Shown piece by piece: positions 1,766-25,443 of a DNA stretch of 46,194 bases. The notes beneath the pieces were generated by a model. It made no database searches and had not been told where the DNA came from. It saw nothing but the letters and a program-made list of their open reading frames with translations. Each line of letters opens with the position of its first letter. Positions within the stretch are counted from its first letter, which is position 1. The stretch is from a virus, in IMG/VR virus record IMGVR_UViG_3300045988_132972; one strand, given 5' to 3'. A program made the translations under genes and the position numbers.

Positions 1766-1793
1766 CCTGAAACTGCGGGTTTACAGTTTCAGG
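1766..1793 (-). terminator. Perfect 10-bp inverted repeat spanning the integrase stop codon (terminator or part of the att site)
   Basis: CCTGAAACTG (1766-1775), 8-nt loop, CAGTTTCAGG (1784-1793). On the minus strand it is followed by GGGGATTTTC. Confidence 0.4.
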
Positions 1794-3340
1794 AAAATCT
1801 CTAATCTAAAGGGATTATCAACATATCGACCTATTCCCGGAAGGGAAGGACTGTCATTATAATACATGATTTTGTCGATACATGATTTTAGAAGTGTGTT
1901 CTTGTCGGCGGCGGATATAGTGTCGTCGTCAAGTGCTTCAAGACATTCACGGAAGCGCACCAGGCGTTCCTGATAATCTACCAGCTGTGTTGTGGAAGAC
2001 TCTGCTTCATCAAGCTTCAGTTGTGCAATTGATATCTGTTCAGCAAGTTTTGCATTACGCACAACAAATTCTTCTTTGGTGTATATACCGTCCTCATAGG
2101 CGTCTTTCTGCCTCATATCTTTTTCTTTTAATTTCTTTAATTCGCCTTTAAGGTTAGTAATCATTGCTCTATGATATGCAATGTCTGTTTCGTCTTTATT
2201 GTTTACCTTGACTTCAAAATCTTCAATGGACTGTCTTAGAGTTTCCTTTACCCTGTCAATAACTGCATCATACATAACTGATTTAGTATGGCAGTTTGAT
2301 TGATTATTACACAAAAAGGAAACAGACACGGATCCATACTTTTTATCAACAGTACGCTTTCTTGACATTGCGTGTCCGCATGTTCCGCAATATAACAATC
2401 CGGCAAGAGGATTTAGAAGTTGAACATACCTCTTGATTCTTGGCGTTCTGTTACGCTTTGCCTTTGCAGCATAGAATAATTCATCACTTATTATTGCCGG
2501 GTGCTTACCAGGAACACTTATATATTCGCTCTGGCGGGGACGCGTCCTGACAATGGTATCATTCTCCCATTTCTTGATAGTTTTCCTTCTGTTCCAGACA
2601 ACTCTTCCGATATAGGTTTCATTAGCAATCATGCAGGATATGGCAGCAGGACTCCATTCAGCGGAGCGTCTTGGTTTATAGCCAGCCATATCAAGCGCAT
2701 GTGCGATACTCCTAAAACCGTAATCTTTATTAACATATAAATCAAACATAAGCCTGACGGCTTCTGCTTCTTCAGGAACAATCTCAAGAGTGTAATATTT
2801 TTCTTTTCCGGTACCGACACAGATTTTTCTATATCCGTATGGCGCGGAATTACCGATGAAGTTACCGGCTTTAACAGAAGCAATACGACCGCGATTAAGA
2901 ATCTTCTTCGTGTATTCCAGATAATCATTACCACGCGTTAATTCCATTTCAAAAAATTTCCTGTCGTATTCGTCGGATAAGTCGTATGTCTTAGGCGGCG
3001 TAATTACTGCAGTGTTGGTGTATCGAAGAGAATTGATTATGTGGCCACAATCCTGCAGGTCACCACGGGACAATCTTTGCGGTTCAACAACAAGCACGCC
3101 TGACACCAAGCCTGTCTCTAATATCTTCATTACATGCTGCATAACAGGACGGTCCTTAATTGTCTCTCCAGACACAACCTCTCTGTATATTCTGTCTTCC
3201 GGAATGCGCGCACCCCATTCTCTTACGGCGTATTCCTGCAGTATGTTCTCATGTCTGAAAAGCACTTCCTCAACGGTAGTTGCCGGATCATCTGACCGGG
3301 ACTTTCTTAAATAGATAATTACATGTTCAAAATCAGCCAT
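1781..3340 (-). CDS. Large serine recombinase (phage integrase)
   Basis: 519 aa. N-terminal resolvase-type catalytic motif IIYLRKSRSDD. Recombinase-domain motif APYGYRK...EEAEAVRLMFDLY. Zinc ribbon CGTCGH...CNNQSNCH. C-terminal coiled coil. SD AAGGAG precedes the ATG. Confidence 0.93.
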   Translation of the reverse strand: MADFEHVIIYLRKSRSDDPATTVEEVLFRHENILQEYAVREWGARIPEDRIYREVVSGETIKDRPVMQHVMKILETGLVSGVLVVEPQRLSRGDLQDCGHIINSLRYTNTAVITPPKTYDLSDEYDRKFFEMELTRGNDYLEYTKKILNRGRIASVKAGNFIGNSAPYGYRKICVGTGKEKYYTLEIVPEEAEAVRLMFDLYVNKDYGFRSIAHALDMAGYKPRRSAEWSPAAISCMIANETYIGRVVWNRRKTIKKWENDTIVRTRPRQSEYISVPGKHPAIISDELFYAAKAKRNRTPRIKRYVQLLNPLAGLLYCGTCGHAMSRKRTVDKKYGSVSVSFLCNNQSNCHTKSVMYDAVIDRVKETLRQSIEDFEVKVNNKDETDIAYHRAMITNLKGELKKLKEKDMRQKDAYEDGIYTKEEFVVRNAKLAEQISIAQLKLDEAESSTTQLVDYQERLVRFRECLEALDDDTISAADKNTLLKSCIDKIMYYNDSPSLPGIGRYVDNPFRLEIFLKL

Positions 3341-18147: not shown

Positions 18148-18311
18148 ACGGGGAGATTTTTTGTGACAGGATTTTTGGATAATTTTTTGACTGGGCATGA
18201 CCAGGTAATTGGCAGCAGTTTTTGACAGCCTGGGTACATAGTCGCATGTATGCCGAGATACATGGTCGCATGTCCTGCCTGAAAATAAATAGACACATGG
18301 CAGCGGATAAT

Positions 18312-18333
18312 AAAAAGCCCGCTGGGGCGGGCT
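18312..18333 (-). terminator. Terminator of the minus-strand accessory operon
   Basis: GCCCGC (18317-18322) pairs with GCGGGC (18327-18332). The minus strand continues with TTTTTATTA. Confidence 0.75.
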
Positions 18334-18338
18334 ATATC

Positions 18339-18509
18339 TTATAATTCGTGAAGTTTTTGTGCAAGTTCAGATGTTGCATGTTCTATACTTTCACCGTTGT
18401 TTACGCTTTCATATGCTTCTTTTATCAGCTTTGCTTCCTGTTCATTTACAACAAGCTTCCCGTTTTCCATTTTATACCCCTTAGGGATATTTGATACATT
18501 TTTTGTCAT
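18339..18509 (-). CDS. 56-aa protein resembling the first ~50 residues of a serine-recombinase 'recombinase' domain
   Basis: The ATG at 18509 lies after AGGAGGCAGCC. IPKGYKMENGKLVVNEQEAKLIKEAYESVNNGESIEHATSELAQKL follows the P.GY....g.L.i.e.EA..v..if..y..G.s...ia..L pattern also present in the integrase at 1781..3340. Confidence 0.6.
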   Translation of the reverse strand: MTKNVSNIPKGYKMENGKLVVNEQEAKLIKEAYESVNNGESIEHATSELAQKLHEL

Positions 18510-18568
18510 GGCTGCCTCCTGGTTAAATTTTGTGACACTATTATAATATATAATGTGCATCATGTATA

Positions 18569-18985
18569 TTATAAAAACGACATAAACAACTCATTATCAC
18601 CGGCATAATCAGAAATAAATTTTTCAGCTTCTTCATATGCGCTGCATGTGAACACGGTTTTATATGATGATTTTTCAATGACTTCAATTTTCATGTCGGA
18701 AACTTTTTTGACGCCGTCGCTATCTACAAAAAGCCCGTCGGAATCGTATTCGTTTAATTCAATGTAATATTCATTCACGGCGAAATAAGCACCGCCTGAG
18801 TTGCTTAATTCCTGAATACTCGTTTTATATTTTGAAAGCTCTTTTTCTGCGTCTTCCAGAGTGTCAAATGACTTTATTGTTTCAGGCACTACATCAAGCG
18901 CACCAACAGCACAACCGCAATTAATATTCTTTCTGTCTGCAAACTTAATTTCAACATCTTTTCTTAAAATTTCATACTTTCTCAT
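18569..18985 (-). CDS. Hypothetical acidic protein (138 aa)
   Basis: ORF track. SD AAGGTGA, preceded by a GC hairpin. Confidence 0.7.
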   Translation of the reverse strand: MRKYEILRKDVEIKFADRKNINCGCAVGALDVVPETIKSFDTLEDAEKELSKYKTSIQELSNSGGAYFAVNEYYIELNEYDSDGLFVDSDGVKKVSDMKIEVIEKSSYKTVFTCSAYEEAEKFISDYAGDNELFMSFL

Positions 18986-19031
18986 AACTTTTCACCTTCG
19001 CGCCATCTGGCGCGCCTTTCTTAAAATATTT

Positions 19032-19568
19032 TTATTCCCATGATTTTTTAGCAACATCTTTTTCAAAAACTGCGCTGCTGTGTTCCTTTGCCAGCTCTTC
19101 AAATTTTTTGAATGCCTGGCGCCTTTCTGATCCGGCAAATGTAAGCCGGTCTTTTTCCACTTCGTGGCCGTCCGTAAGATTTACAGAGTAAAATATTATA
19201 TAATACGCAACTTTACCGCCGTATTTTTTGACACGCTGCAATAATATTTTTTCACGGGTTGGGGAAGTAGCAAGATAATTATATCTATTAACAAGCCCCA
19301 TCTTGTAAGCCTTAAGCATTGCAATATTTTTTTCAAGCCTTTGGATATCTGCATCAGCTCTGGCCATGTTCCGCACAACCTCATCACATGTGTATATTTT
19401 TGACGGGTGATTCTCAAAAATATGTATTGTGCGCTCTGCCGGCGATTCAGAATAAGAGCCATATTTTGTGAACAACTCCTTAAATAAATTTTCCTGCCTC
19501 TCCTTTGTGCAGGTGTCCGCATCAGGACACCCACAGCAAGGGATTTTTTTATTACAAATATCTATCAT
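19032..19568 (-). CDS. Hypothetical protein with an N-terminal Cys cluster (178 aa)
   Basis: ORF track. N-terminus CNKKIPCCGCPDADTC. ATGA start/stop overlap with the upstream J-domain gene. Confidence 0.7.
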   Translation of the reverse strand: MIDICNKKIPCCGCPDADTCTKERQENLFKELFTKYGSYSESPAERTIHIFENHPSKIYTCDEVVRNMARADADIQRLEKNIAMLKAYKMGLVNRYNYLATSPTREKILLQRVKKYGGKVAYYIIFYSVNLTDGHEVEKDRLTFAGSERRQAFKKFEELAKEHSSAVFEKDVAKKSWE

Positions 19569-20560
19569 GCGATTCTCACCTCCTTTAATGCTTCGCTTGG
19601 GTCTTCCTTGAAAATAAAGCTATGCGTAAATTTTGAATAGTAGCCGCCCAACTTCTTAATCTCATTGTTAAGCTTTATATAATTGTCACGGCTGAGATTA
19701 TCAAGCCACTTGACAAGATATATTTTTTCGCCGGTCTTTGTGTGTTGTGATTCCTGGACTGTGAAAGCCTCTCCACTTGTGCTTATCTGCTCCGGCTGTT
19801 CTGGAGTAGTTGCAGGTGTTGCGGCTGCACTCTTGATTCTTGCGGTCTTTGGTACAATCTGAACATTGTAACCGTTATCCTGGCAGCAACCGAAATAATA
19901 AAAATTAACATCAAAATAATCAATCTGACCGTCACAGTCGCTGTAATTGTAAGACTTAACAAATGCGTCAACATCATCAACAACCGCCTTTGTTGCCTCG
20001 TTTAATATCCTTGACCAACGGCTAGAAGATGCGTTTATAATCTCTTCTTTCTCTTCTCTTGAAGAATTAAGAAAATTCATAAAAGCGTCATTATCAAAAG
20101 TAAACAACCTCTTACCGATATTGTGGAAGTCCTCTTCTGTCAGGTCCTCAAAATATTTATATATTTCAATCGGGCTTTCTTTAAGGTCAACATGTAATTC
20201 CTGGCACATAGAAGCATAAGCGGTTCTAACACTGAATTTGTATGTTGGATATTGTTCTTTTATATACTTACGAACAATAACAGCTATTTCTTTGAGTGTT
20301 AAATTAGAATCGTAACGGCTGCCTTCCCAACCAAAAGCTGTATAAAAGTTTCTTCTTGTACCCTGGGCGGTCTCTTTCTTCTCCTCTTCTGTAATTGTCT
20401 GGTCCTTATTCTTCCAGATCCTGAATGCGATATCATATTCCTGGTTGATTTCCTGCATTGTTTCAAGATTTCCGCCGTTGTCTGGGTGATTCTTCTTAAG
20501 TAAATCTCTGTAAGTCTCTTTTAATTCCTTGTAGCTCTTTACATTCTTAAAATATCTCAT
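19565..20560 (-). CDS. J-domain (DnaJ-like) protein, 331 aa, with a large non-chaperone C-terminal region
   Basis: YKELKETYRDLLKKNHPDNGGNLETMQEINQEYD carries the HPD tripeptide in a J-domain helix II/III context. The ATG at 20560 lies after ACGGAGG; the track start at 20614 is upstream of the predicted -10. The C-terminus ..NNEIKKLGGYYSKFTHSFIF is a small K.LGG......F module. Confidence 0.8.
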   Translation of the reverse strand: MRYFKNVKSYKELKETYRDLLKKNHPDNGGNLETMQEINQEYDIAFRIWKNKDQTITEEEKKETAQGTRRNFYTAFGWEGSRYDSNLTLKEIAVIVRKYIKEQYPTYKFSVRTAYASMCQELHVDLKESPIEIYKYFEDLTEEDFHNIGKRLFTFDNDAFMNFLNSSREEKEEIINASSSRWSRILNEATKAVVDDVDAFVKSYNYSDCDGQIDYFDVNFYYFGCCQDNGYNVQIVPKTARIKSAAATPATTPEQPEQISTSGEAFTVQESQHTKTGEKIYLVKWLDNLSRDNYIKLNNEIKKLGGYYSKFTHSFIFKEDPSEALKEVRIA

Positions 20561-20602
20561 AATTAATACCTCCGTAAATGAATTTCGTTTATCTTTATCT
20601 GC

Positions 20603-20631
20603 AATATAAACCATTTTAATTTAGTTGTCAA
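20603..20631 (-). promoter_or_regulatory. Promoter of the J-domain operon
   Basis: Minus strand: TTGACA (complement of 20626-20631), 17 nt, TATATT (complement of 20603-20608). Confidence 0.6.
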
Positions 20632-20654: not shown

Positions 20655-20683
20655 TTGACTTTATGCGTAAAATAAATTAATAT
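20655..20683 (+). promoter_or_regulatory. Divergent promoter of the 20716 HTH gene
   Basis: TTGACT (20655-20660), 17 nt, TAATAT (20678-20683). Confidence 0.6.
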
Positions 20684-20715
20684 GGTTTATATTAAGAGAA
20701 AGGGGAACATATAAC

Positions 20716-20958
20716 ATGAATTATAAAATGACATTTGACTACACAGACAACAACCAGATAAAAGATAATTATAAAACACTGCTGAAATCAAAAGGCTTTA
20801 CAATGAAGAGGGCTTCTGAATTAATGGGGCTGTCAACTCCTCAGCAATTAAATAACAAATTTAATAATAAGCGTTTATCATTGGAAGACCTCGCGGCTGC
20901 TCTTGATGCCATAGGCTGTACACTCGAAATATCATTTAAAGAAAAGGCGGGGAATTAA
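20716..20958 (+). CDS. HTH DNA-binding protein (80 aa)
   Basis: LLKSKGFTMKRASELMGLSTPQQLNNKFNNKRLSLEDLAAALDAIGC is a Cro/C1-like HTH. SD AAAGGGGAA. Confidence 0.75.
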   Translation: MNYKMTFDYTDNNQIKDNYKTLLKSKGFTMKRASELMGLSTPQQLNNKFNNKRLSLEDLAAALDAIGCTLEISFKEKAGN

Positions 20959-21477: not shown

Positions 21478-21506
21478 TTGACTTTTAAAAATGCATATAA
21501 TACTAT
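21478..21506 (+). promoter_or_regulatory. Promoter of the 21539 HTH gene
   Basis: TTGACT (21478-21483), 17 nt, TACTAT (21501-21506). Confidence 0.45.
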
Positions 21507-21538
21507 TAATACAGAACCAAGAGAAAGGAGACGGCGCA

Positions 21539-21766
21539 ATGATAAAATACAAAGTTGATGTATTCCAGAAACTAAAAGAACACGGCTTCAATCAAGCAAG
21601 AATTCAAGGCGAGAAGCTACTACCGGCGCAGACAGTCCAAAATATAAAAGCAGGCAAAAGCATCACACTAGAAACACTAAATAAAATATGTATTATGTGC
21701 AAGTGCCAGCCTGGGGATATAATCGAAGTAATACCAACAGATCAAGAAAAAATAAAATATTATTGA
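21539..21766 (+). CDS. XRE/Cro-C1-type HTH regulator (75 aa)
   Basis: The ATG at 21539 lies after AAAGGAG. LKEHGFNQARIQGEKLLPAQTVQNIKAGKSITLETLNKICIMCKCQPGDIIE. Confidence 0.8.
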   Translation: MIKYKVDVFQKLKEHGFNQARIQGEKLLPAQTVQNIKAGKSITLETLNKICIMCKCQPGDIIEVIPTDQEKIKYY

Positions 21767-21838: not shown

Positions 21839-22078
21839 ATGCATATACAATACAAAAAGCAGGCAGTAAAATATATTAATACTTGCGATAAGCCAACAAA
21901 GAACAGGCTAAAAGAAGCTATTGAAAAACTCCCTCTTGGAGATGTAAAGAAATTATCAGGGTATGACAAAGAATACAGGCTTAGAGTTGGCGATATTCGC
22001 GTATTATTTACGATTGAAGACGAATCAATAATAATTAATAGTATTTTACCAAGAGGGCAAGCATATAAAAGAGTTTAG
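21839..22078 (+). CDS. RelE/ParE-family type II toxin
   Basis: 79 aa. KEYRLRVGDIRVLFTIEDESIIINSILPRGQAYK matches the ..R.RvGdYRiiy.i.d..i.i..i.hR..aY signature. Confidence 0.8.
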   Translation: MHIQYKKQAVKYINTCDKPTKNRLKEAIEKLPLGDVKKLSGYDKEYRLRVGDIRVLFTIEDESIIINSILPRGQAYKRV

Positions 22079-22090
22079 GAGGCGCAGAAA

Positions 22091-22276
22091 ATGAGCAAAG
22101 ACTTATTAAAAAATATTATTGACTTAATACCTGATGAAGACATTGACACAATATACAAGGTCGTTGTTAAATTCATACCAGAAGATAAGCCAACCCCGGA
22201 CGAAATAAAAGCGATTGAGGAAGCGAAAGAGGACAGCGGGGAATTGATAGACCATAACAATATTGACTGGAATTAA
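22091..22276 (+). CDS. Small acidic protein (61 aa), possible antitoxin partner
   Basis: ORF track. SD TAGGAGG. ..PTPDEIKAIEEAKEDSGELIDHNNIDW. A terminator follows directly. Confidence 0.6.
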   Translation: MSKDLLKNIIDLIPDEDIDTIYKVVVKFIPEDKPTPDEIKAIEEAKEDSGELIDHNNIDWN

Positions 22277-22289
22277 TCCAGAAATTCAA

Positions 22290-22313
22290 GGGCGGCATCA
22301 TTGCCGCCTTTTT
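22290..22313 (+). terminator. Terminator after the RelE module
   Basis: GGCGGCA pairs with TGCCGCC, followed by TTTTT. Confidence 0.8.
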
Positions 22314-22363
22314 AAATTCTATAATATCCCTGTCTCCTCTCTACCTTCACAACCTCAGGACAA

Positions 22364-22383
22364 CAGCAGACGGCACAGCCTCA
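22364..22383 (+). repeat. 20-nt repeat CAGCAGACGGCACAGCCTCA, copy 1 (copy 2 at 22822-22841; diverged copy at ~22499-22519)
   Basis: Exact match read from the sequence. Confidence 0.9.
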
Positions 22384-22472
22384 CGGCATAAGCTCTACCC
22401 TGGTCTATATACCGGAGAGGACAAAGCACAGCAGAAGAAGAGCAGCAGAGAACACAACCAGGAACAGCAGAA

Positions 22473-22491
22473 GCCAGACACACAGAAGCCA
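22473..22491 (+). repeat. 19-nt repeat GCCAGACACACAGAAGCCA, copy 1 (copy 2 at 22796-22814)
   Basis: Exact match. Together with the 20-mer it forms a ~55-nt bipartite repeat unit. Confidence 0.9.
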
Positions 22492-22609
22492 CACACAACA
22501 GCAGACGGCGACAGCTCCACCATATAGCCAGGAAGCAAGGAAGAAAGGAAGAGAATCAGGAAGCAAGACGGCATCAGCTCCGTTTACAAAACGATAAACG
22601 ATACACACA

Positions 22610-22660
22610 GAGCAGACAAAGAAGGTCAAGCGCCTTTTCTGTCTGCTCTTTCTGTTTCTA
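22610..22660 (+). terminator. Terminator-like hairpin in the middle of the T-depleted island
   Basis: GAGCAGAC (22610-22617) pairs with GTCTGCTC (22641-22648), followed by TTTCTGTTTCT. Confidence 0.5.
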
Positions 22661-22795
22661 TAGATCCATAACGGCAGCAGCTAGGCACAAGGGGGAGACC
22701 TGGCAGCAGGTAAGGAAGACAGGAAGAGAGAAGACACGGCCGGAGACGGCAGCAGACGCAGAAGGGACAAGGACAGCAACCACCACATAACAGCA

Positions 22796-22841
22796 GCCAG
22801 ACACACAGAAGCCAGGCATGGCAGCAGACGGCACAGCCTCA
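22796..22841 (+). repeat. Second copy of the bipartite repeat (19-mer at 22796-22814 plus 20-mer at 22822-22841)
   Basis: Exact matches to 22473-22491 and 22364-22383. Confidence 0.9.
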
Positions 22842-22964
22842 AGCCTCCGGAGGCTCTCCGATCCGGCTCAAAGCGACTACACGACTACCCAAAAGGTTAG
22901 ATTGAAAGTGCGTAGGTACTACCCAGCCCCACCCCCTATGCGGGTCGGAGAAAGGCGCATTAAT

Positions 22965-22986
22965 TCCGCCGATAAAATCAAAAAAT
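22965..22986 (+). promoter_or_regulatory. Degenerate copy of the CGCATAAAATCAGAAT box, ~105 nt upstream of terS
   Basis: TCCGCCGATAAAATCAAAAAAT versus TCCGC--ATAAAATCAGAAT. Confidence 0.35.
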
Positions 22987-23090
22987 AATTTCGCATTTCG
23001 TTACGCAATGGGGTAAAAAATGCATGTTAGCACGCAATAGCACTAGCGTTCATGATATTTTGATATTGTGAAAAAATATAAAAGGGGCTG

Positions 23091-23642
23091 ATTACTACGG
23101 CAGGAAGACCAAGAAAAAAAGAATTATGCGAATCAAAAGAAATTGCAGAATTGTTCGGTGTAACTGTGCGCAGAATTCAGCAGCTTACACAGGACGGGGT
23201 AATATCCAGCGTTCAGGTTAAGGGAGAGAGGGGAAGACGATATGAGAAAGACGAGACAGTTAAGACTTATATCAAGTACCTTTCCGACAAGGCAAATGGC
23301 AAAGCAACATCTAAAGGTGAAGCGGAATTGAAGGAACAGAAATTAAAAGTTGAAATAGCGCTGAAAGAATCTCAAAGAGATTTACATGTGTTGCGTACAG
23401 ATATTGCGGCAGGAAAGTATATAACCGTTGAAGAGGTTAAACTTGACTATAGCCGCTTTTTTGTTGCCTTCAAAAAATTTGCATTATCCCTTCCTAACAA
23501 GATTGCATGGCAGGTTGCCGGTTCTGTTGAACCGACAGAATTAAGGCGTATTGAAAACGAAATGCAACAGGAGGTAAAGAGGCTGCTTAATAGTTTCGTT
23601 GTATCTGCTGTTGTGGAACGGGAAAATGATGAGGAAGCCTAA
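23091..23642 (+). CDS. terS: Terminase small subunit (N-terminal winged-HTH), start codon uncertain
   Basis: The frame is open from 23082 and encodes ..KKELCESKEIAELFGVTVRRIQQLTQDGVI, a typical TerS/Nu1-like HTH. The first ATG/GTG/TTG in frame is the TTG at 23151, inside that HTH. ATT (23091) or CTG (23088) follow AAAGGGG. Confidence 0.7.
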   Translation: MTTAGRPRKKELCESKEIAELFGVTVRRIQQLTQDGVISSVQVKGERGRRYEKDETVKTYIKYLSDKANGKATSKGEAELKEQKLKVEIALKESQRDLHVLRTDIAAGKYITVEEVKLDYSRFFVAFKKFALSLPNKIAWQVAGSVEPTELRRIENEMQQEVKRLLNSFVVSAVVERENDEEA

Positions 23643-25443
23643 GAAACTATCTGTAACCCAGTATCAATACGACGCCTTGCAATTAATGCTGCCGCCTGAA
23701 CAAATCACGGTCTCTGAATGGGCGGGAAAATATAGAATGCTTGACTCTAAATCGTCTGCAATACCAGGACCGTGGAATAATGATATAACGCCATATCTTA
23801 CAGGCGTTATGGACGAGTTCAACAATTACGAAACATCTAAAATCATATTTGTTAAGCCTACTCAGGTGGGCGGAACAGAAGCTTTACAGAATATGATTGG
23901 CTATATTGTTATGCAGGACCCGGCACCAACAATGATTGTCTATCCTACAGAAACACTTGCTAAATCAATATCAGAAAACAGATTACAGCCAATGTTAAGG
24001 GCGACACCAGAACTGGCAAGAAGGTTTGATGAAAATTCACAGCTTCTTGAATTACAGTTTGACGGCATGTACTTAACATTGGCTGGTTCTAATTCTCCAT
24101 CAGGTTTAGCGAGTAAACCTATTCGTTTCGTGTTGATGGACGAGGTTGACAAATATCCGGGAACCAGTGGCAAGGAAGCTGATCCTATTAAACTTGCGAC
24201 AGAGAGAACGAAAACATTCCATGACAAGAAAATATATATAACAAGCACGCCAACTCTTAAGACTGGCCATATCTGGAAAGAAAAGGAAAGCGCAGATATA
24301 GAAAAACATTATTTTGTTCCATGCCCTCATTGCGGGGAGTACATAGAACTTAAGTTTTCTAATATCAGATTTCCGGACGAAGAAGGAATGACTTATGCCG
24401 ATAGAGCGGAATTTGCAACTTATATATGCCAGGAATGCGGCTGCGCAATAACTGATGCAGATAAAAACAATATGATACGGCATGGAGAATGGCGCATAGT
24501 ACGCCATAATACTCAATATGTCCGTTCTGTTGCATTTTGGATTAACACATTGTACAGCCCTTTCGTAAGATGGGCTGATATTGTGAAAGAATTCCTTACA
24601 ACAAAAGACGACCCGGATCTATTTCAGAATTTTGTAAACTCATGGCTGGCTGAACCGTGGGAAGATACAAAACTTAAGACAAGTGCAGAACTTGTACTTG
24701 AGAGGCAGACAGAACTGCCAGAGTATGTTGTTCCTTCATGGGCGAAAATATTAACTGGTGGAGTAGATGTTCAGGAAACCTCACTGTACTGGTCAATAAG
24801 AGCCTGGGGGGATTATCTCACCAGTCAGAATATTGCACACGGTCAGGTTCTATCATTCAATGATATTGATAACATTATGAACGCTGAATATCTCAATGAG
24901 AACGGCGAGCCTATGATTGTTAATTTATGCCTGGTTGATTCAGGAGACCAAACAGATATTGTGTACGACTTTTGCGCGACACATTCCGATTATGCATTAC
25001 CGGTGAAGGGTTCTTCTCATGCACAGCTATCAAATTATAAATTGAGCAAAATAAACAGGACTGACAGCCGGGCTATGGGTACAACACTTGTACTTGTAGA
25101 CAGTGGCGCTTATAAAGACATGATTGCTGGACGAATGCAGAGAGACAACGGGCGTGGAAGCTGGATGGTGTATTCTGGTTGCGATATGGAATATGCAAAA
25201 CAGGTTACAGCCGAGCATAAGGTTAATGTCAAACATGGCAACACTGTTAAGAAAGTCTGGCAGTTAAAAACAAGTCATGCAGATAATCACTATCTGGATA
25301 CAGAAGTGTATAACGCAGCGGCAGCAGATATATTAGGCGTTAGACAGCTTCATTTGATGAAAGAGGAAGATGTATCAGTTCCTGAATATAAGCCGCCGGA
25401 GGAACAATGGATTACAGAAAATGACAATTGGTTAGACCGATAG
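23626..25443 (+). CDS. terL: Terminase large subunit, lambda GpA family
   Basis: VKPTQVGGTE (Walker A-like), VLMDEVD (Walker B), CPHCGE...CQECGC zinc motif. ~605 aa. Confidence 0.92.
   Translation: MMRKPKKLSVTQYQYDALQLMLPPEQITVSEWAGKYRMLDSKSSAIPGPWNNDITPYLTGVMDEFNNYETSKIIFVKPTQVGGTEALQNMIGYIVMQDPAPTMIVYPTETLAKSISENRLQPMLRATPELARRFDENSQLLELQFDGMYLTLAGSNSPSGLASKPIRFVLMDEVDKYPGTSGKEADPIKLATERTKTFHDKKIYITSTPTLKTGHIWKEKESADIEKHYFVPCPHCGEYIELKFSNIRFPDEEGMTYADRAEFATYICQECGCAITDADKNNMIRHGEWRIVRHNTQYVRSVAFWINTLYSPFVRWADIVKEFLTTKDDPDLFQNFVNSWLAEPWEDTKLKTSAELVLERQTELPEYVVPSWAKILTGGVDVQETSLYWSIRAWGDYLTSQNIAHGQVLSFNDIDNIMNAEYLNENGEPMIVNLCLVDSGDQTDIVYDFCATHSDYALPVKGSSHAQLSNYKLSKINRTDSRAMGTTLVLVDSGAYKDMIAGRMQRDNGRGSWMVYSGCDMEYAKQVTAEHKVNVKHGNTVKKVWQLKTSHADNHYLDTEVYNAAAADILGVRQLHLMKEEDVSVPEYKPPEEQWITENDNWLDR

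What the first reader, a model, noticed from the sequence alone, without database searches (positions are those of the whole stretch)
18312..20631. Opposite-strand four-gene accessory operon headed by a phage J-domain protein
Seen: a self-contained minus-strand operon has its own TTGACA-17-TATATT promoter (20603-20631) and terminator (18312-18333), inserted between the early block and the packaging genes. Gene 1 (19565..20560) has a clear J-domain with the HPD motif (LLKKNHPDNGG). This is followed by ~260 residues with no chaperone-type Gly/Phe or zinc-finger region, ending in a small K.LGG......F module. Gene 2 is start/stop coupled to it (ATGA overlap) and begins with a Cys cluster. Gene 3 is acidic. 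Gene 4 is a recombinase-domain mini-protein. A divergent HTH gene (20716) shares the control region. Established: J-domains recruit Hsp70/DnaK, and a phage-encoded J-domain protein (Rki of coliphage RB43) has been described, but they are rare in phages. Inference: the operon may retarget host DnaK toward phage or host clients, and it could be an anti-defence or host-takeover module.
Basis: partly seen in the sequence, partly recalled or inferred. Interest (0 to 1): 0.65.

Follow-up and report, generated by a model that had tools for sequence, protein, structure and literature searches.

The report
Phage J-domain polyvalent-type accessory operon
A temperate gut-Clostridia phage carries a small backwards-facing operon whose first protein joins a host-chaperone-recruiting J-domain to "LPD29", a domain of unknown function typical of invasion proteins of phages and conjugative elements, so it is probably a regulated tool for hijacking the host Hsp70 during establishment or counter-defence, which remains untested.

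Summary
In detail: promoter, terminator, four minus-strand genes, ATGA coupling, HPD motif, Cys cluster, acidic gene 3 and a divergent HTH gene are all present.

It is not a fixed four-gene unit.
- The conserved core is gene 1 plus gene 2. All 20 IMG/VR loci found with gene 2 have gene 1 immediately upstream with a 4-nt overlap. Of 78 gene-1 loci, 55 have gene 2 downstream. The two are fused into one ORF in three loci.
- Gene 3 is confined to this phage lineage.
- Gene 4 is a ~230-bp insertion absent even from the closest relatives.

Gene 1 is not "a J-domain plus 260 featureless residues". It is a J-domain with invariant HPD, followed by Pfam LPD29 (39 bits against a cut-off of 27). It ends in a ~65-aa module that recurs inside giant phage methylase/SNF2 "polyvalent" proteins.

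The same unit heads larger proteins ending in DNA methyltransferase, RadC, DUF6908-MuF_C or YodL. It also occurs in conjugative elements beside ArdC-primase, SSB, RadC and a relaxase.

My best reading is a class-C J-protein that recruits host DnaK for establishment or counter-defence. Its target is unknown and no function was tested. I rate it a new variant of a known kind, of moderate interest.

The parts
20603..20631 (-). Sigma-70-type promoter of the operon (TTGACA-17-TATATT)
   Evidence: 11 of 12 match, the best in the 4-kb scan. It lies about 40 nt upstream of the gene 1 start and GGAGG ribosome-binding site.
20603..20626 (.). Left arm of a 24-nt inverted repeat; overlaps the -10 and spacer of the gene 1 promoter (candidate operator)
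   Evidence: 22 of 24 positions complementary to 20670-20693. None of 300 dinucleotide shuffles reached 22; the maximum was 20.
20670..20693 (.). Right arm of the inverted repeat; overlaps the -10 and start region of the divergent HTH gene's promoter-like site (TTGACT-17-TAATAT, 20655-20683)
19565..20560 (-). Gene 1: 331-aa J-domain / LPD29 / C-terminal-module protein
   Evidence: ORF and ribosome-binding site. More than 881 full-length homologues. 3495 clusters at 50% identity. AF2 model with mean pLDDT 78.
20396..20560 (-). J-domain (residues 1-55; HPD at 20480-20488)
   Evidence: Pfam DnaJ E = 4.5e-4, 20.7 bits, below the gathering score of 27.8. The family profile hits almost only J-domains in the PDB, 23 of 25 matches up to E = 1. 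HPD and helix-II residues L13, K14, Y17, L20, L21 and K22 are invariant or nearly so. The model shows a helical hairpin, H10-24 and H32-52. BFVD J-domain matches at 1.4-1.9 A rmsd.
19841..20371 (-). LPD29 region (residues ~64-240), including a swappable segment at residues 131-192 and a highly conserved acidic/aromatic motif SYNYxDCDGxIDYFxVxFYYFGC
   Evidence: Pfam PF18847, 39 bits against a cut-off of 27, residues 89-148. Invariant columns. Cassette swap against the closest relatives: 19% identity in 131-192 against 98-100% in the flanks.
19577..19771 (-). C-terminal ~65-aa beta-beta-alpha-beta-beta module (xDTRDG...GGYYSxFxHxFxF)
   Evidence: It matches internal parts of giant polyvalent families phrog_15406 and phrog_11358. 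BFVD gives structural matches with probability 1.0 inside phage SNF2 and methylase giants. It is tandemly duplicated in 8 of 174 family members. No Pfam or PDB relative.
19032..19568 (-). Gene 2: 178-aa partner protein (optional N-terminal Cys cluster, long helix, beta3-alpha-beta domain), translationally coupled by ATGA
   Evidence: Always directly after gene 1 in 20 of 20 loci. Fused to gene 1 in L028, L146 and L148.
18999..19014 (.). G+C hairpin between genes 2 and 3, with no T-run on the operon strand
   Evidence: conserved in L009 and L014
18569..18985 (-). Gene 3: 138-aa acidic protein (pI 4.5), lineage-specific cargo
   Evidence: Its 24 homologues are all 70% identical or more. In every locus read it lies right after genes 1-2 in this phage lineage. 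No family match.
18540..18568 (-). Promoter-like site TATACA-17-TATAAT at the start of the gene 4 insertion
   Evidence: 10 of 12; it lies within DNA absent from L009 and L014
18339..18509 (-). Gene 4: 56-aa mini-protein resembling the start of the serine-recombinase 'recombinase' domain; recent insertion
   Evidence: PHROG 4e-7 and 8e-7. Absent from all 156 loci checked. The insertion is mapped. Unrelated to the window's integrase.
18316..18333 (-). Intrinsic terminator of the operon
   Evidence: stem conserved and loop variable in relatives
20716..20958 (+). Divergent 80-aa HTH gene, candidate regulator
   Evidence: HTH_3 22.6 bits against a cut-off of 23, plus other HTH families. PHROG transcription regulators. 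Conserved in relatives, though not always adjacent to gene 1.

Best explanation
**What it is.** This is a regulated accessory module of temperate phages of gut Clostridia. Its conserved core is a two-gene unit, gene 1 plus gene 2.

Gene 1 is a class-C J-domain co-chaperone. A minimal N-terminal J-domain is joined to an LPD29 domain and a small C-terminal module. Both are building blocks of the 'polyvalent' invasion proteins that phages and conjugative elements are proposed to deploy when they enter a new cell.

**Proposed mechanism (inferred, not shown).**
1. The LPD29 region, the C-terminal module and the gene 2 protein hold a specific client or site. This could be a host defence or DNA-handling complex, or the element's own DNA-protein intermediates.
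2. The HPD loop docks on ATP-bound host DnaK and triggers ATP hydrolysis.
3. DnaK then clamps on and remodels, disassembles or sequesters that client.
4. This favours establishment of the incoming or induced element, a counter-defence or takeover role.

**Other parts.** Gene 2 is an obligate partner in phages. Genes 3 and 4 are later cargo riding on the same transcript. The divergent HTH gene and the 24-nt inverted repeat spanning both promoters probably keep expression in check. To my knowledge, unregulated J-domains are toxic.

**What is shown.** The domain identities, conservation, gene coupling, fusions and genomic company.

**What is inferred.** DnaK binding, the identity of the client, the timing of expression and the biological role.
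For: **J-domain**
- HPD is invariant in the 26-sequence alignment, present in 120 of 120 close homologues and in 111 of 150 cluster representatives.
- The family profile hits almost only J-domains in the PDB: 23 of 25 matches up to E = 1, the other two being pyruvate dehydrogenase kinase at E 0.18-0.2. Matches include SV40 T antigens and DNAJA1.
- The model is a helical hairpin.
- BFVD matches to phage J-proteins have 1.4-1.9 A rmsd.
- RefSeq names plasmid proteins with the same J subtype 'J domain-containing protein'.

**LPD29.** The Pfam match is above the gathering score.

**Polyvalent kinship**
- The same J-LPD29-module unit heads 660-1061-aa proteins ending in DNA methyltransferase, RadC, DUF6908+MuF_C or YodL.
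- The C-terminal module is internal to giant phage methylase and SNF2 proteins.

**Company it keeps**
- A conjugative element with ArdC-N/Toprim, SSB, a ParE-like pair, RadC, the J-LPD29 gene, then a MobL relaxase.
- A type IV secretion neighbourhood.
- A Parabacteroides element with an N-6 DNA methylase.
- Adjacent Dam-like methylases.

**Gene 1-gene 2 link**
- 20 of 20 and 55 of 78 loci, with a 4-nt overlap.
- Fusion proteins in L028, L146 and L148.

**Arms-race signature.** There is a cassette swap in residues 131-192 between otherwise 98-100% identical proteins.

**Regulation**
- The inverted repeat matches 22 of 24 positions and no shuffle of 300 reaches that.
- HTH genes recur next to gene 1.

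**Literature**
- LPD domains are predicted facilitators of early invasion (PMC5512222).
- LPD29 genes occur in aca4 operons (PMC13551039).
- Leading-region islands mix anti-defence genes, methylases, SSB and toxin-antitoxin genes (PMC11541004).
Against: - No experiment or direct computation links this protein to DnaK or to any defence system.
- The Pfam J-domain score (20.7 bits) is below the curated cut-off (27.8).
- LPD29, the C-terminal module and gene 2 have no known activity and no significant structural relatives.
- No PADLOC match.
- In phages the module faces away from the lytic genes. That arrangement is also typical of genes expressed from the prophage, which would suit a host-benefit or exclusion function as well as an anti-defence one.
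- Conjugative-element versions lack gene 2, so the phage and conjugative roles could differ.
- The control region is not homologous in the closest relatives, so the HTH80/inverted-repeat pairing is specific to this phage.
Confidence: 0.5

Rival explanations
1. Prophage-expressed 'moron'. The opposite-strand operon is transcribed from the lysogen and protects or benefits the host. It might act through superinfection exclusion, abortive infection, or chaperone-linked sensing of incoming phages, rather than helping the phage invade.
For: - It has its own promoter and terminator and faces away from the flanking lytic genes. This arrangement recurs in most phage contigs.
- A ParE-like toxin pair and several small HTH genes lie alongside.
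- Host DnaJ has been implicated in phage sensing by bNACHT25 (PMC12169576), so a chaperone-immunity link exists.
Against: - The same protein unit sits among ArdC, SSB, RadC and relaxase genes in conjugative elements. It is also fused to methyltransferase, RadC and MuF_C domains, which are typical of offensive polyvalent proteins.
- No PADLOC family matches.
- The published association is with anti-defence operons.
Confidence: 0.2
2. Propagation helper. The J-domain brings DnaK to the element's own machinery. That could be a replication initiator or helicase loader, recombination intermediates, or large multidomain or virion proteins. This would follow the way DnaJ/DnaK act on lambda O-P-DnaB or P1 RepA, or the way Rki raises chaperone supply. 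No host-defence target would be involved.
For: - DnaK/DnaJ dependence of lambda, P1 and F replication is established (PMC8215388).
- The SV40 T-antigen J-domain supports viral replication (PMC13254874).
- The operon lies next to the replication block, which holds a replication-associated-protein family (REP_ORF2-G2P) and an HNH endonuclease.
- One conjugative locus has an HTH_36/DnaD protein nearby.
Against: - The family moves between unrelated phage types and conjugative elements with different replication systems.
- It is on the opposite strand from the replication genes.
- Its fusion partners are DNA-modification and anti-restriction-type domains, not replication proteins.
- The cassette swap suggests diversifying selection.
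Confidence: 0.2
3. The N-terminal helices are a degenerate J-like fold that no longer engages Hsp70. The protein would act purely through LPD29, for example as a DNA- or protein-binding inhibitor.
For: - The Pfam DnaJ score is below the gathering threshold, and only helices II-III are clear.
- A few family members have HPE, HSD, HLD or no motif at all.
- LPD29 also exists without the J-domain in Streptomyces, Cytophagales and others.
Against: - HPD, the following GG and the helix-II signature are invariant across proteins that are otherwise only 50-60% identical. That is hard to explain without selection for Hsp70 contact.
- Polyomavirus T antigens have the same HPD-x-GG motif and are among the best PDB matches. 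To my knowledge they are functional J-domains.
Confidence: 0.08

Closest known systems
LPD29-containing 'polyvalent' proteins of phages and conjugative elements (Iyer, Burroughs, Anand, de Souza, Aravind 2017, PMC5512222; Pfam PF18847)
   Same: - Gene 1 has an LPD29 domain above the Pfam threshold.
- It occurs in both phages and conjugative elements.
- Relatives are fused to methyltransferase, RadC, MuF_C and YodL domains.
- Its C-terminal module is shared with giant methylase and SNF2 proteins.
- The paper notes that solo forms occur near phage structural or type IV secretion genes.
   Different: - This is a short three-domain form expressed from its own regulated operon.
- Its head is a J-domain, which that paper never mentions (no occurrence of DnaJ, J-domain or Hsp70).
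- In phages it has a dedicated, translationally coupled partner, gene 2.
Rki (ORF 057w) of T4-like coliphage RB43 (Perrody et al. 2012, PMC3486835)
   Same: It is a phage-encoded class-C J-protein whose J-domain is joined to an otherwise unknown region. It is the only phage J-protein with experimental data.
   Different: - In a tblastn search of 50,697 GenBank phage records (E limit 1e-5), only three uncultured faecal contigs matched, so Rki's phages were not among the matches. Any relation is limited to the J-domain.
- Rki acts on sigma-32 through DnaK in E. coli. To my knowledge that circuit is not the heat-shock control of Clostridia.
- Rki is not linked to LPD29, to conjugative elements or to a partner gene.
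Polyomavirus large and small T antigens (J-domain with HPDKGG)
   Same: - A viral protein whose N-terminal J-domain is joined to a specific client-binding part.
- It uses the host Hsp70 to remodel host complexes and support replication.
- It has the same HPD-x-GG motif and is among the best PDB sequence matches (E = 1.7e-3 and 4e-3).
   Different: It is a eukaryotic virus protein with no similarity beyond about 35 residues. The resemblance is one of logic, not descent.
acr-aca type anti-defence operons (HTH-regulated)
   Same: - A strong promoter with an inverted repeat, next to a small HTH gene.
- Small genes of unknown function in a variable phage region.
- LPD29 genes have been reported in aca4 operons (PMC13551039).
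   Different: - Here the HTH gene is divergent rather than the last gene of the operon.
- No anti-CRISPR is recognisable.
- Kinship of this HTH to Aca4 was not tested.
Leading-region anti-defence islands of conjugative plasmids (Samuel and Burstein 2024, PMC11541004)
   Same: In the conjugative relatives the gene lies in a same-strand run of ArdC-N/primase, SSB, a toxin-antitoxin-like pair and RadC, just upstream of the relaxase. This is the mix described for such islands.
   Different: - oriT was not mapped here, so leading-region status is unproven.
- That study does not list J-domain or chaperone genes.

Membership tests
J-domain proteins (Hsp70 co-chaperones) | HPD tripeptide in the loop between helices II and III | tested here: met
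   H25-P26-D27 is invariant in 26 of 26 aligned sequences, present in 120 of 120 close homologues and in 111 of 150 cluster representatives.
J-domain proteins (Hsp70 co-chaperones) | Helical hairpin fold with a conserved basic/hydrophobic helix II | tested here: met
   The AF2 model has helices 10-24 and 32-52. L13, K14, Y17, L20, L21 and K22 are conserved. BFVD J-domain matches at 1.4-1.9 A rmsd. Helices I and IV are not clear.
J-domain proteins (Hsp70 co-chaperones) | Match to the Pfam DnaJ model (PF00226) at the gathering score | tested here: not met
   20.7 bits against 27.8 (E = 4.5e-4). However, the family profile finds almost only J-domains in the PDB: 23 of 25 matches up to E = 1, best 1.8e-4.
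J-domain proteins (Hsp70 co-chaperones) | HPD-dependent stimulation of Hsp70/DnaK ATPase | not testable with these tools
   This needs biochemistry or a genetic domain-swap complementation test.
Class A/B DnaJ chaperones | Gly/Phe-rich region, CXXCXGXG zinc fingers, DnaJ C-terminal client-binding domains | tested here: not met
   No DnaJ_C or DnaJ_CXXCXGXG match. The TIGR02349 match covers only residues 10-47 (13.9 bits against 377). The protein is class C.
LPD29 (Pfam PF18847) | Match above the Pfam gathering score | tested here: met
   39 bits against 27, residues 89-148. All listed homologues carry PF18847.
Polyvalent proteins of phages and conjugative elements (Iyer et al. 2017) | Several unrelated effector or adaptor domains in one polypeptide, drawn from a shared pool | tested here: met
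   Gene 1 has three modules. Relatives add methyltransferase, RadC, DUF6908, MuF_C or YodL domains. This member is at the short end, or is a 'solo' form.
Polyvalent proteins of phages and conjugative elements (Iyer et al. 2017) | Encoded by phages and conjugative elements | tested here: met
   Prophage and viral contigs. Conjugative elements.
Polyvalent proteins of phages and conjugative elements (Iyer et al. 2017) | Delivered with the DNA, or acting in the earliest phase of invasion | not testable with these tools
   There is only an indirect hint: some relatives carry a MuF_C domain or lie beside type IV secretion genes.
acr-aca anti-defence operon | HTH (Aca) repressor binding inverted repeats in the operon promoter | tested here: inconclusive
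   An inverted repeat matching 22 of 24 positions spans both divergent promoters, and a marginal HTH_3 gene lies adjacent. Binding was not tested. The HTH is divergent, not co-operonic. The control region differs in relatives.
acr-aca anti-defence operon | Encodes a protein that inhibits CRISPR-Cas or another defence system | not testable with these tools
   No match to known families.
Known anti-phage defence systems (PADLOC-DB 2.0) | Match to a defence-system protein model | tested here: not met
   No families matched the four genes or six neighbours.
Serine recombinase (gene 4) | Resolvase catalytic domain plus full recombinase domain | tested here: not met
   Gene 4 is 56 aa. Only PHROG matches cover the first ~45 positions of the recombinase domain. 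There is no Pfam match and no similarity to the window's integrase.

The most novel reading that the evidence does not exclude
J-LPD29 proteins may be a large, previously unrecognised class of mobile-element effectors. They would direct the host's own Hsp70 to dismantle or sequester a specific immune or DNA-surveillance complex. That would be a chaperone-hijacking counter-defence mechanism shared by phages and conjugative elements. In this reading the swappable segment at residues 131-192 sets target specificity, and gene 2 acts as adaptor.
Probability: 0.2. Interest if true: 0.85.

Novelty: new variant of a known kind. Interest (0 to 1): 0.55.

Why it matters
Only one phage J-protein, Rki, has been characterised according to a 2026 review (PMC13254874). 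The functions of the 'LPD' domains of polyvalent proteins are all unknown.

This family offers a handle on both.
- **A defined partner.** It joins an LPD domain to a module with a well-understood biochemical partner, DnaK, and a single-residue off switch (HPD to QPD).
- **Abundance.** It comprises 3495 clusters at 50% identity and 187 IMG/VR stretches, mainly in gut Clostridia, with distant members in Bacteroidales and Treponema.
- **Easily missed.** It scores below Pfam's J-domain threshold, so J-protein censuses based on that threshold would probably have missed it.
- **Barely represented in GenBank phages.** Only 3 of 50,697 phage records carry it, all uncultured.

If the DnaK-recruitment idea holds, the family would link chaperone hijacking to the establishment of phages and conjugative elements in the gut microbiome. 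It would also give a route to finding the client of LPD29.

If it does not hold, this remains an ordinary accessory operon of unknown function.

Tried and rejected
- **Foldseek, gene 1 model against the PDB.** Nothing below E = 0.16. The top match is a J-domain. CapZ, kinase N-lobe and YciH matches are insignificant.
- **Foldseek, gene 2 model against the PDB.** Nothing below E = 0.027. Weak PC4/Pur-alpha-like and EndoV matches were not taken as evidence.
- **C-terminal module against PDB sequences.** The profile found nothing. Pfam finds no family for it, alone or in ten relatives.
- **PADLOC.** No match for the four genes and six neighbours.
- **NCBIfam.** Nothing useful.
- **Rfam and tRNA scans of the window.** Nothing.
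- **Gene 4 as a copy of the phage integrase.** Rejected.
- **Search for relatives with the same left flank but no operon,** to show an insertion. All six relatives found carry it.
- **Rki-like sigma-32 mechanism.** Set aside. The resemblance is limited to the J-domain, and to my knowledge Clostridia do not use that circuit.
- **DUF3560 identity for the C-terminal module.** This was a lead from memory. The only support is a weak DUF3560 match in one fusion protein (P0160, E = 3e-4, below threshold). Not adopted.
- **Whether the C-terminal module or the DYF motif is Iyer's 'LPD30'.** Could not be decided, because no Pfam model is at hand.
- **Barriot et al. 2020,** the census of bacterial and phage J-proteins, is not held in the library.

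Full report
**1. What is in the sequence**

The window is a temperate tailed phage or prophage. It has a large serine recombinase at 1781..3340, a replication-associated protein, an HNH endonuclease, a gpA-type large terminase at 23599..25443, a lambda-type portal and a capsid protein.

Between the plus-strand early block and the packaging genes lie four minus-strand genes.
- Gene 1 is 19565..20560 (331 aa). The true start is the ATG at 20560 behind a GGAGG. The longer ORF from 20614 starts inside the promoter.
- Gene 2 is 19032..19568 (178 aa) and overlaps gene 1 by ATGA.
- Gene 3 is 18569..18985 (138 aa, pI 4.5, net charge -11).
- Gene 4 is 18339..18509 (56 aa, behind an AGGAGG).

The promoter TTGACA-17-TATATT at 20631..20603 matches 11 of 12 positions, the best match in the 4-kb scan. 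Promoter-like sites in general are not enriched there (21 against 15.3 +/- 3.7). The terminator at 18333..18316 has a 7-bp stem with 6 G-C pairs and a T-run. Its stem is conserved and its loop varies in relatives.

**2. Gene 1 is a three-part protein**

*J-domain, residues 1-55.*
- Pfam DnaJ matches at E = 4.5e-4 but at 20.7 bits, below the curated 27.8.
- A profile of 26 family members finds almost only J-domains among all PDB sequences. Of 25 matches up to E = 1, 23 are J-domains; the other two are pyruvate dehydrogenase kinase at E 0.18-0.2. Matches include Euglena NDUEG6 (1.8e-4), SV40 large and small T antigens and DNAJA1.
- H25-P26-D27-N-G-G is invariant, and the helix-II residues L13, K14, Y17, L20, L21 and K22 are conserved.
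- HPD is present in 120 of 120 close homologues and in 111 of 150 cluster representatives. Most exceptions are N-terminally truncated or lack the J-domain; a few carry HPE, HSD or HLD.
- The AlphaFold model (mean pLDDT 78) shows a helical hairpin at 10-24 and 32-52.
- The model superposes on phage J-domain proteins in BFVD at 1.4-1.9 A rmsd.
- RefSeq calls plasmid proteins with the same J subtype (54% identity over 46 residues) 'J domain-containing protein'.
- There is no Gly/Phe region, zinc finger or DnaJ C-terminal domain. The protein is a class-C J-protein.

*LPD29 region, residues ~64-240.*
- Pfam LPD29 (PF18847) matches at 39 bits against a cut-off of 27.
- Many columns are invariant, including an acidic/aromatic stretch, SYNYxDCDGxIDYFxVxFYYFGC.
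- The segment at residues 131-192 is swappable. The closest phage relatives are 98-100% identical to the window protein in residues 1-60 and 241-331, but only 19% identical in 131-192.

*C-terminal module, residues 264-328.*
- It has no Pfam or PDB relative.
- It matches internal parts of two giant PHROG families, phrog_15406 ('DNA methyltransferase', 2789 positions) and phrog_11358.
- It superposes with probability 1.0 on 63-69-aa pieces inside phage SNF2 and methylase giants.
- It is tandemly duplicated in 8 of 174 family members.

*Whole model.* It has no significant PDB match.

**3. The family and its company**

The word-index search gave more than 881 full-length homologues, all carrying PF18847. 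The exhaustive search gave 3495 clusters at 50% identity with E <= 1e-3, and 162 with E <= 1e-30. Hosts are mainly Lachnospiraceae and other Clostridia. Distant J+LPD29 forms occur in Treponema and Bacteroidales. LPD29 without the J-domain occurs in Streptomyces, Cytophagales and others.

The J-LPD29-module unit also forms the head of 660-1061-aa proteins that continue with other domains:
- a DNA methyltransferase (P0166, P0195, L147, L149);
- a RadC JAB domain (P0158, P0163);
- DUF6908 plus MuF_C (P0156, L025, L027);
- YodL (P0267).

Neighbours in other loci include Dam-like methylases with DUF4942, and DUF6908.

Three conjugative contexts were seen.
- In a set of conjugative elements the gene lies in a same-strand run of ArdC-N/Toprim primase, SSB, a ParE-like pair, RadC and the J-LPD29 gene, followed by small RHH-like genes, a MobL relaxase and ParA/ParB.
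- In L025 the 1052-aa form lies next to a type IV secretion ATPase and a lysozyme/C39 hydrolase.
- In a Parabacteroides element it lies near an N-6 DNA methylase and DUF4120/4121/4313 genes.

This is the pattern described for 'polyvalent proteins' and their solo domains (PMC5512222). That paper lists LPD29 as of unknown function, associated with LPD30, and never mentions a J-domain. A 2026 study found LPD29 genes in aca4-regulated operons and suggested an anti-defence role (PMC13551039).

**4. The operon is a two-gene core plus cargo**

*Gene 2.*
- It has few, fairly close homologues.
- Its linkage to gene 1 is very tight. All 20 IMG/VR loci found with gene 2 have gene 1 immediately upstream with the same 4-nt overlap.
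- Of 78 IMG/VR loci with gene 1, 55 have gene 2 downstream.
- The two are fused into one ORF in L028 (a 538-aa Pseudobutyrivibrio protein, read through), L146 and L148.
- The Cys cluster is optional. It is missing in the L018, L030 and L028 forms.
- The model (mean pLDDT 73.5) shows a disordered N-terminus, a long helix at 61-100 and a beta3-alpha-beta domain. It has no significant structural match.
- Conjugative-element versions lack gene 2.

*Gene 3.* Its homologues are all 70% identical or more. They lie right after genes 1-2 in this phage lineage.

*Gene 4.*
- It is absent from all 156 loci checked.
- In the closest relatives the gene 3 stop is followed directly by the shared terminator.
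- The window has an extra ~230 bp carrying gene 4, with its own promoter-like site at 18568..18540.
- Its resemblance to the start of the recombinase domain rests on PHROGs only. It is unrelated to the window's integrase.

The meaningful unit, genes 1-2, co-occurs overwhelmingly.

**5. Arrangement and control**

In most phage contigs, genes 1-2 plus zero to a few variable small genes form a short islet facing away from the flanking genes.

In the window, the 157-nt region between gene 1 and the HTH gene holds a 24-nt inverted repeat, 20603-20626 against 20670-20693. It matches 22 of 24 positions; no shuffle of 300 reached 22, and the maximum was 20. One arm covers the -10 and spacer of the gene 1 promoter. 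The other covers the -10 and start region of the HTH gene's promoter-like site.

This control region is not homologous in L008 and L009. There an extra 64-aa HTH_26 gene lies divergent from gene 1, with a different TTGACA promoter. Small Cro/C1-type HTH genes recur next to gene 1. Regulation by a small HTH protein is therefore a recurrent theme, but the specific pairing in this window is local.

I found no relatives with the same left flank that lack the operon.

**6. Mechanism**

*Shown.* A conserved J-domain is joined to two polyvalent-type modules. It has a coupled or fused partner, a swappable internal segment, regulated and oppositely oriented expression, and occurs in both phages and conjugative elements among methylases, SSB, RadC, ArdC and toxin-antitoxin-like genes.

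*Inferred.* As in other class-C J-proteins, such as auxilin, HscB and the T antigens (my own knowledge), the non-J part would select a client or site, and the J-domain would load host DnaK onto it. The company the family keeps points to establishment of incoming DNA or counter-defence.

I put about 0.5 on this overall picture. My confidence in the domain assignments and the two-gene core is higher, about 0.85.

*Rivals.*
- A lysogen-expressed moron or exclusion function: 0.2.
- A helper for the element's own replication or folding: 0.2.
- A degenerate J-like fold: 0.08.

No known defence family matches.

**7. Comparison and novelty**

Phage J-proteins are a known class. A 2026 review cites 137 phage genomes and 49 unique sequences, with only Rki characterised (PMC13254874; PMC3486835). 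LPD29 is a named Pfam domain. One homologue is already labelled 'molecular chaperone DnaJ' by NCBI.

Several things appear undescribed in the literature I could search:
- the J-LPD29 architecture as a large family shared by phages and conjugative elements;
- its dedicated partner gene;
- the gene 1-gene 2 fusions;
- the internal cassette swap.

The family is almost absent from GenBank phage records: 3 of 50,697, all uncultured faecal contigs. Hence my rating is a new variant of a known kind, with interest 0.55.

Noticed in passing
window 19985-20170 (gene 1 residues 131-192): Gene 1 is mosaic. The closest phage relatives (P0003, L009) are 98-100% identical in residues 1-60 and 241-331 but only 19% identical in 131-192. 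Other family members carry one or other version of the segment. It looks like a swappable specificity cassette inside the LPD29 region.
   Followed up: partly
window 18339-18568: Gene 4 and its promoter-like site lie on a ~230-bp insertion between the gene 3 stop and the shared terminator. The insertion is absent from the closest relatives, L009 and L014, and gene 4 was found in none of the 156 loci checked. The 56-aa product resembles only the first ~45 positions of the serine-recombinase 'recombinase' domain.
   Followed up: yes
window 21839-22276; L001 8080-8523: A ParE/RelE-like toxin gene (79 aa) and a following 61-aa gene recur within a few kb of J-LPD29 genes. This holds in several phage lineages and in conjugative elements (59% and 49% identity in L001-L004, L015 and L016). 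The pair may travel with the J-LPD29 gene or work with it.
   Followed up: partly
window 21491-21766: Homologues of this HTH_26 (Cro/C1-type) gene lie near gene 1 in 53 of the fetched loci. They include the gene directly divergent from gene 1 in L005 (32% identity). It may be the more general regulator of the module.
   Followed up: partly
window 18228-18273: Two tandem copies of a 22-nt direct repeat (GCCTGGGTACATAGTCGCATGT and GCCGAGATACATGGTCGCATGT) lie just beyond the operon terminator, between the convergent transcription units. They are conserved in L009 and L014. Function unknown.
   Followed up: no
window 18999-19014: A G+C-rich hairpin (CGCGCC-ATCT-GGCGCG) lies in the 46-nt gap between genes 2 and 3, with no T-run on the operon strand. 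It is conserved in relatives. It could be an RNA processing or stability element, or a partial attenuator that sets the ratio of gene 3 to genes 1-2.
   Followed up: no
L028 5995-7611; L146 4995-6581; L148 4995-6608: These are natural fusions of gene 1 and the gene 2 core (without the Cys cluster) into single 528-538-aa proteins, joined by an acidic linker.
   Followed up: yes
L164 4995-5441 (Clostridium tyrobutyricum plasmid NZ_CP047468.1): A 148-aa 'J domain-containing protein' has the same J-domain subtype (54% identity over 46 aa) but a different C-terminal part. It is encoded on a MOBQ plasmid near a TrbL gene. This J-domain type seems to be reused by other mobile-element proteins.
   Followed up: no
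window 22300-23150: The stretch upstream of the small-terminase-like ORF has only short Cys/Leu-rich ORFs that do not look like genes. It could be a non-coding packaging (cos or pac) region. Not examined.
   Followed up: no
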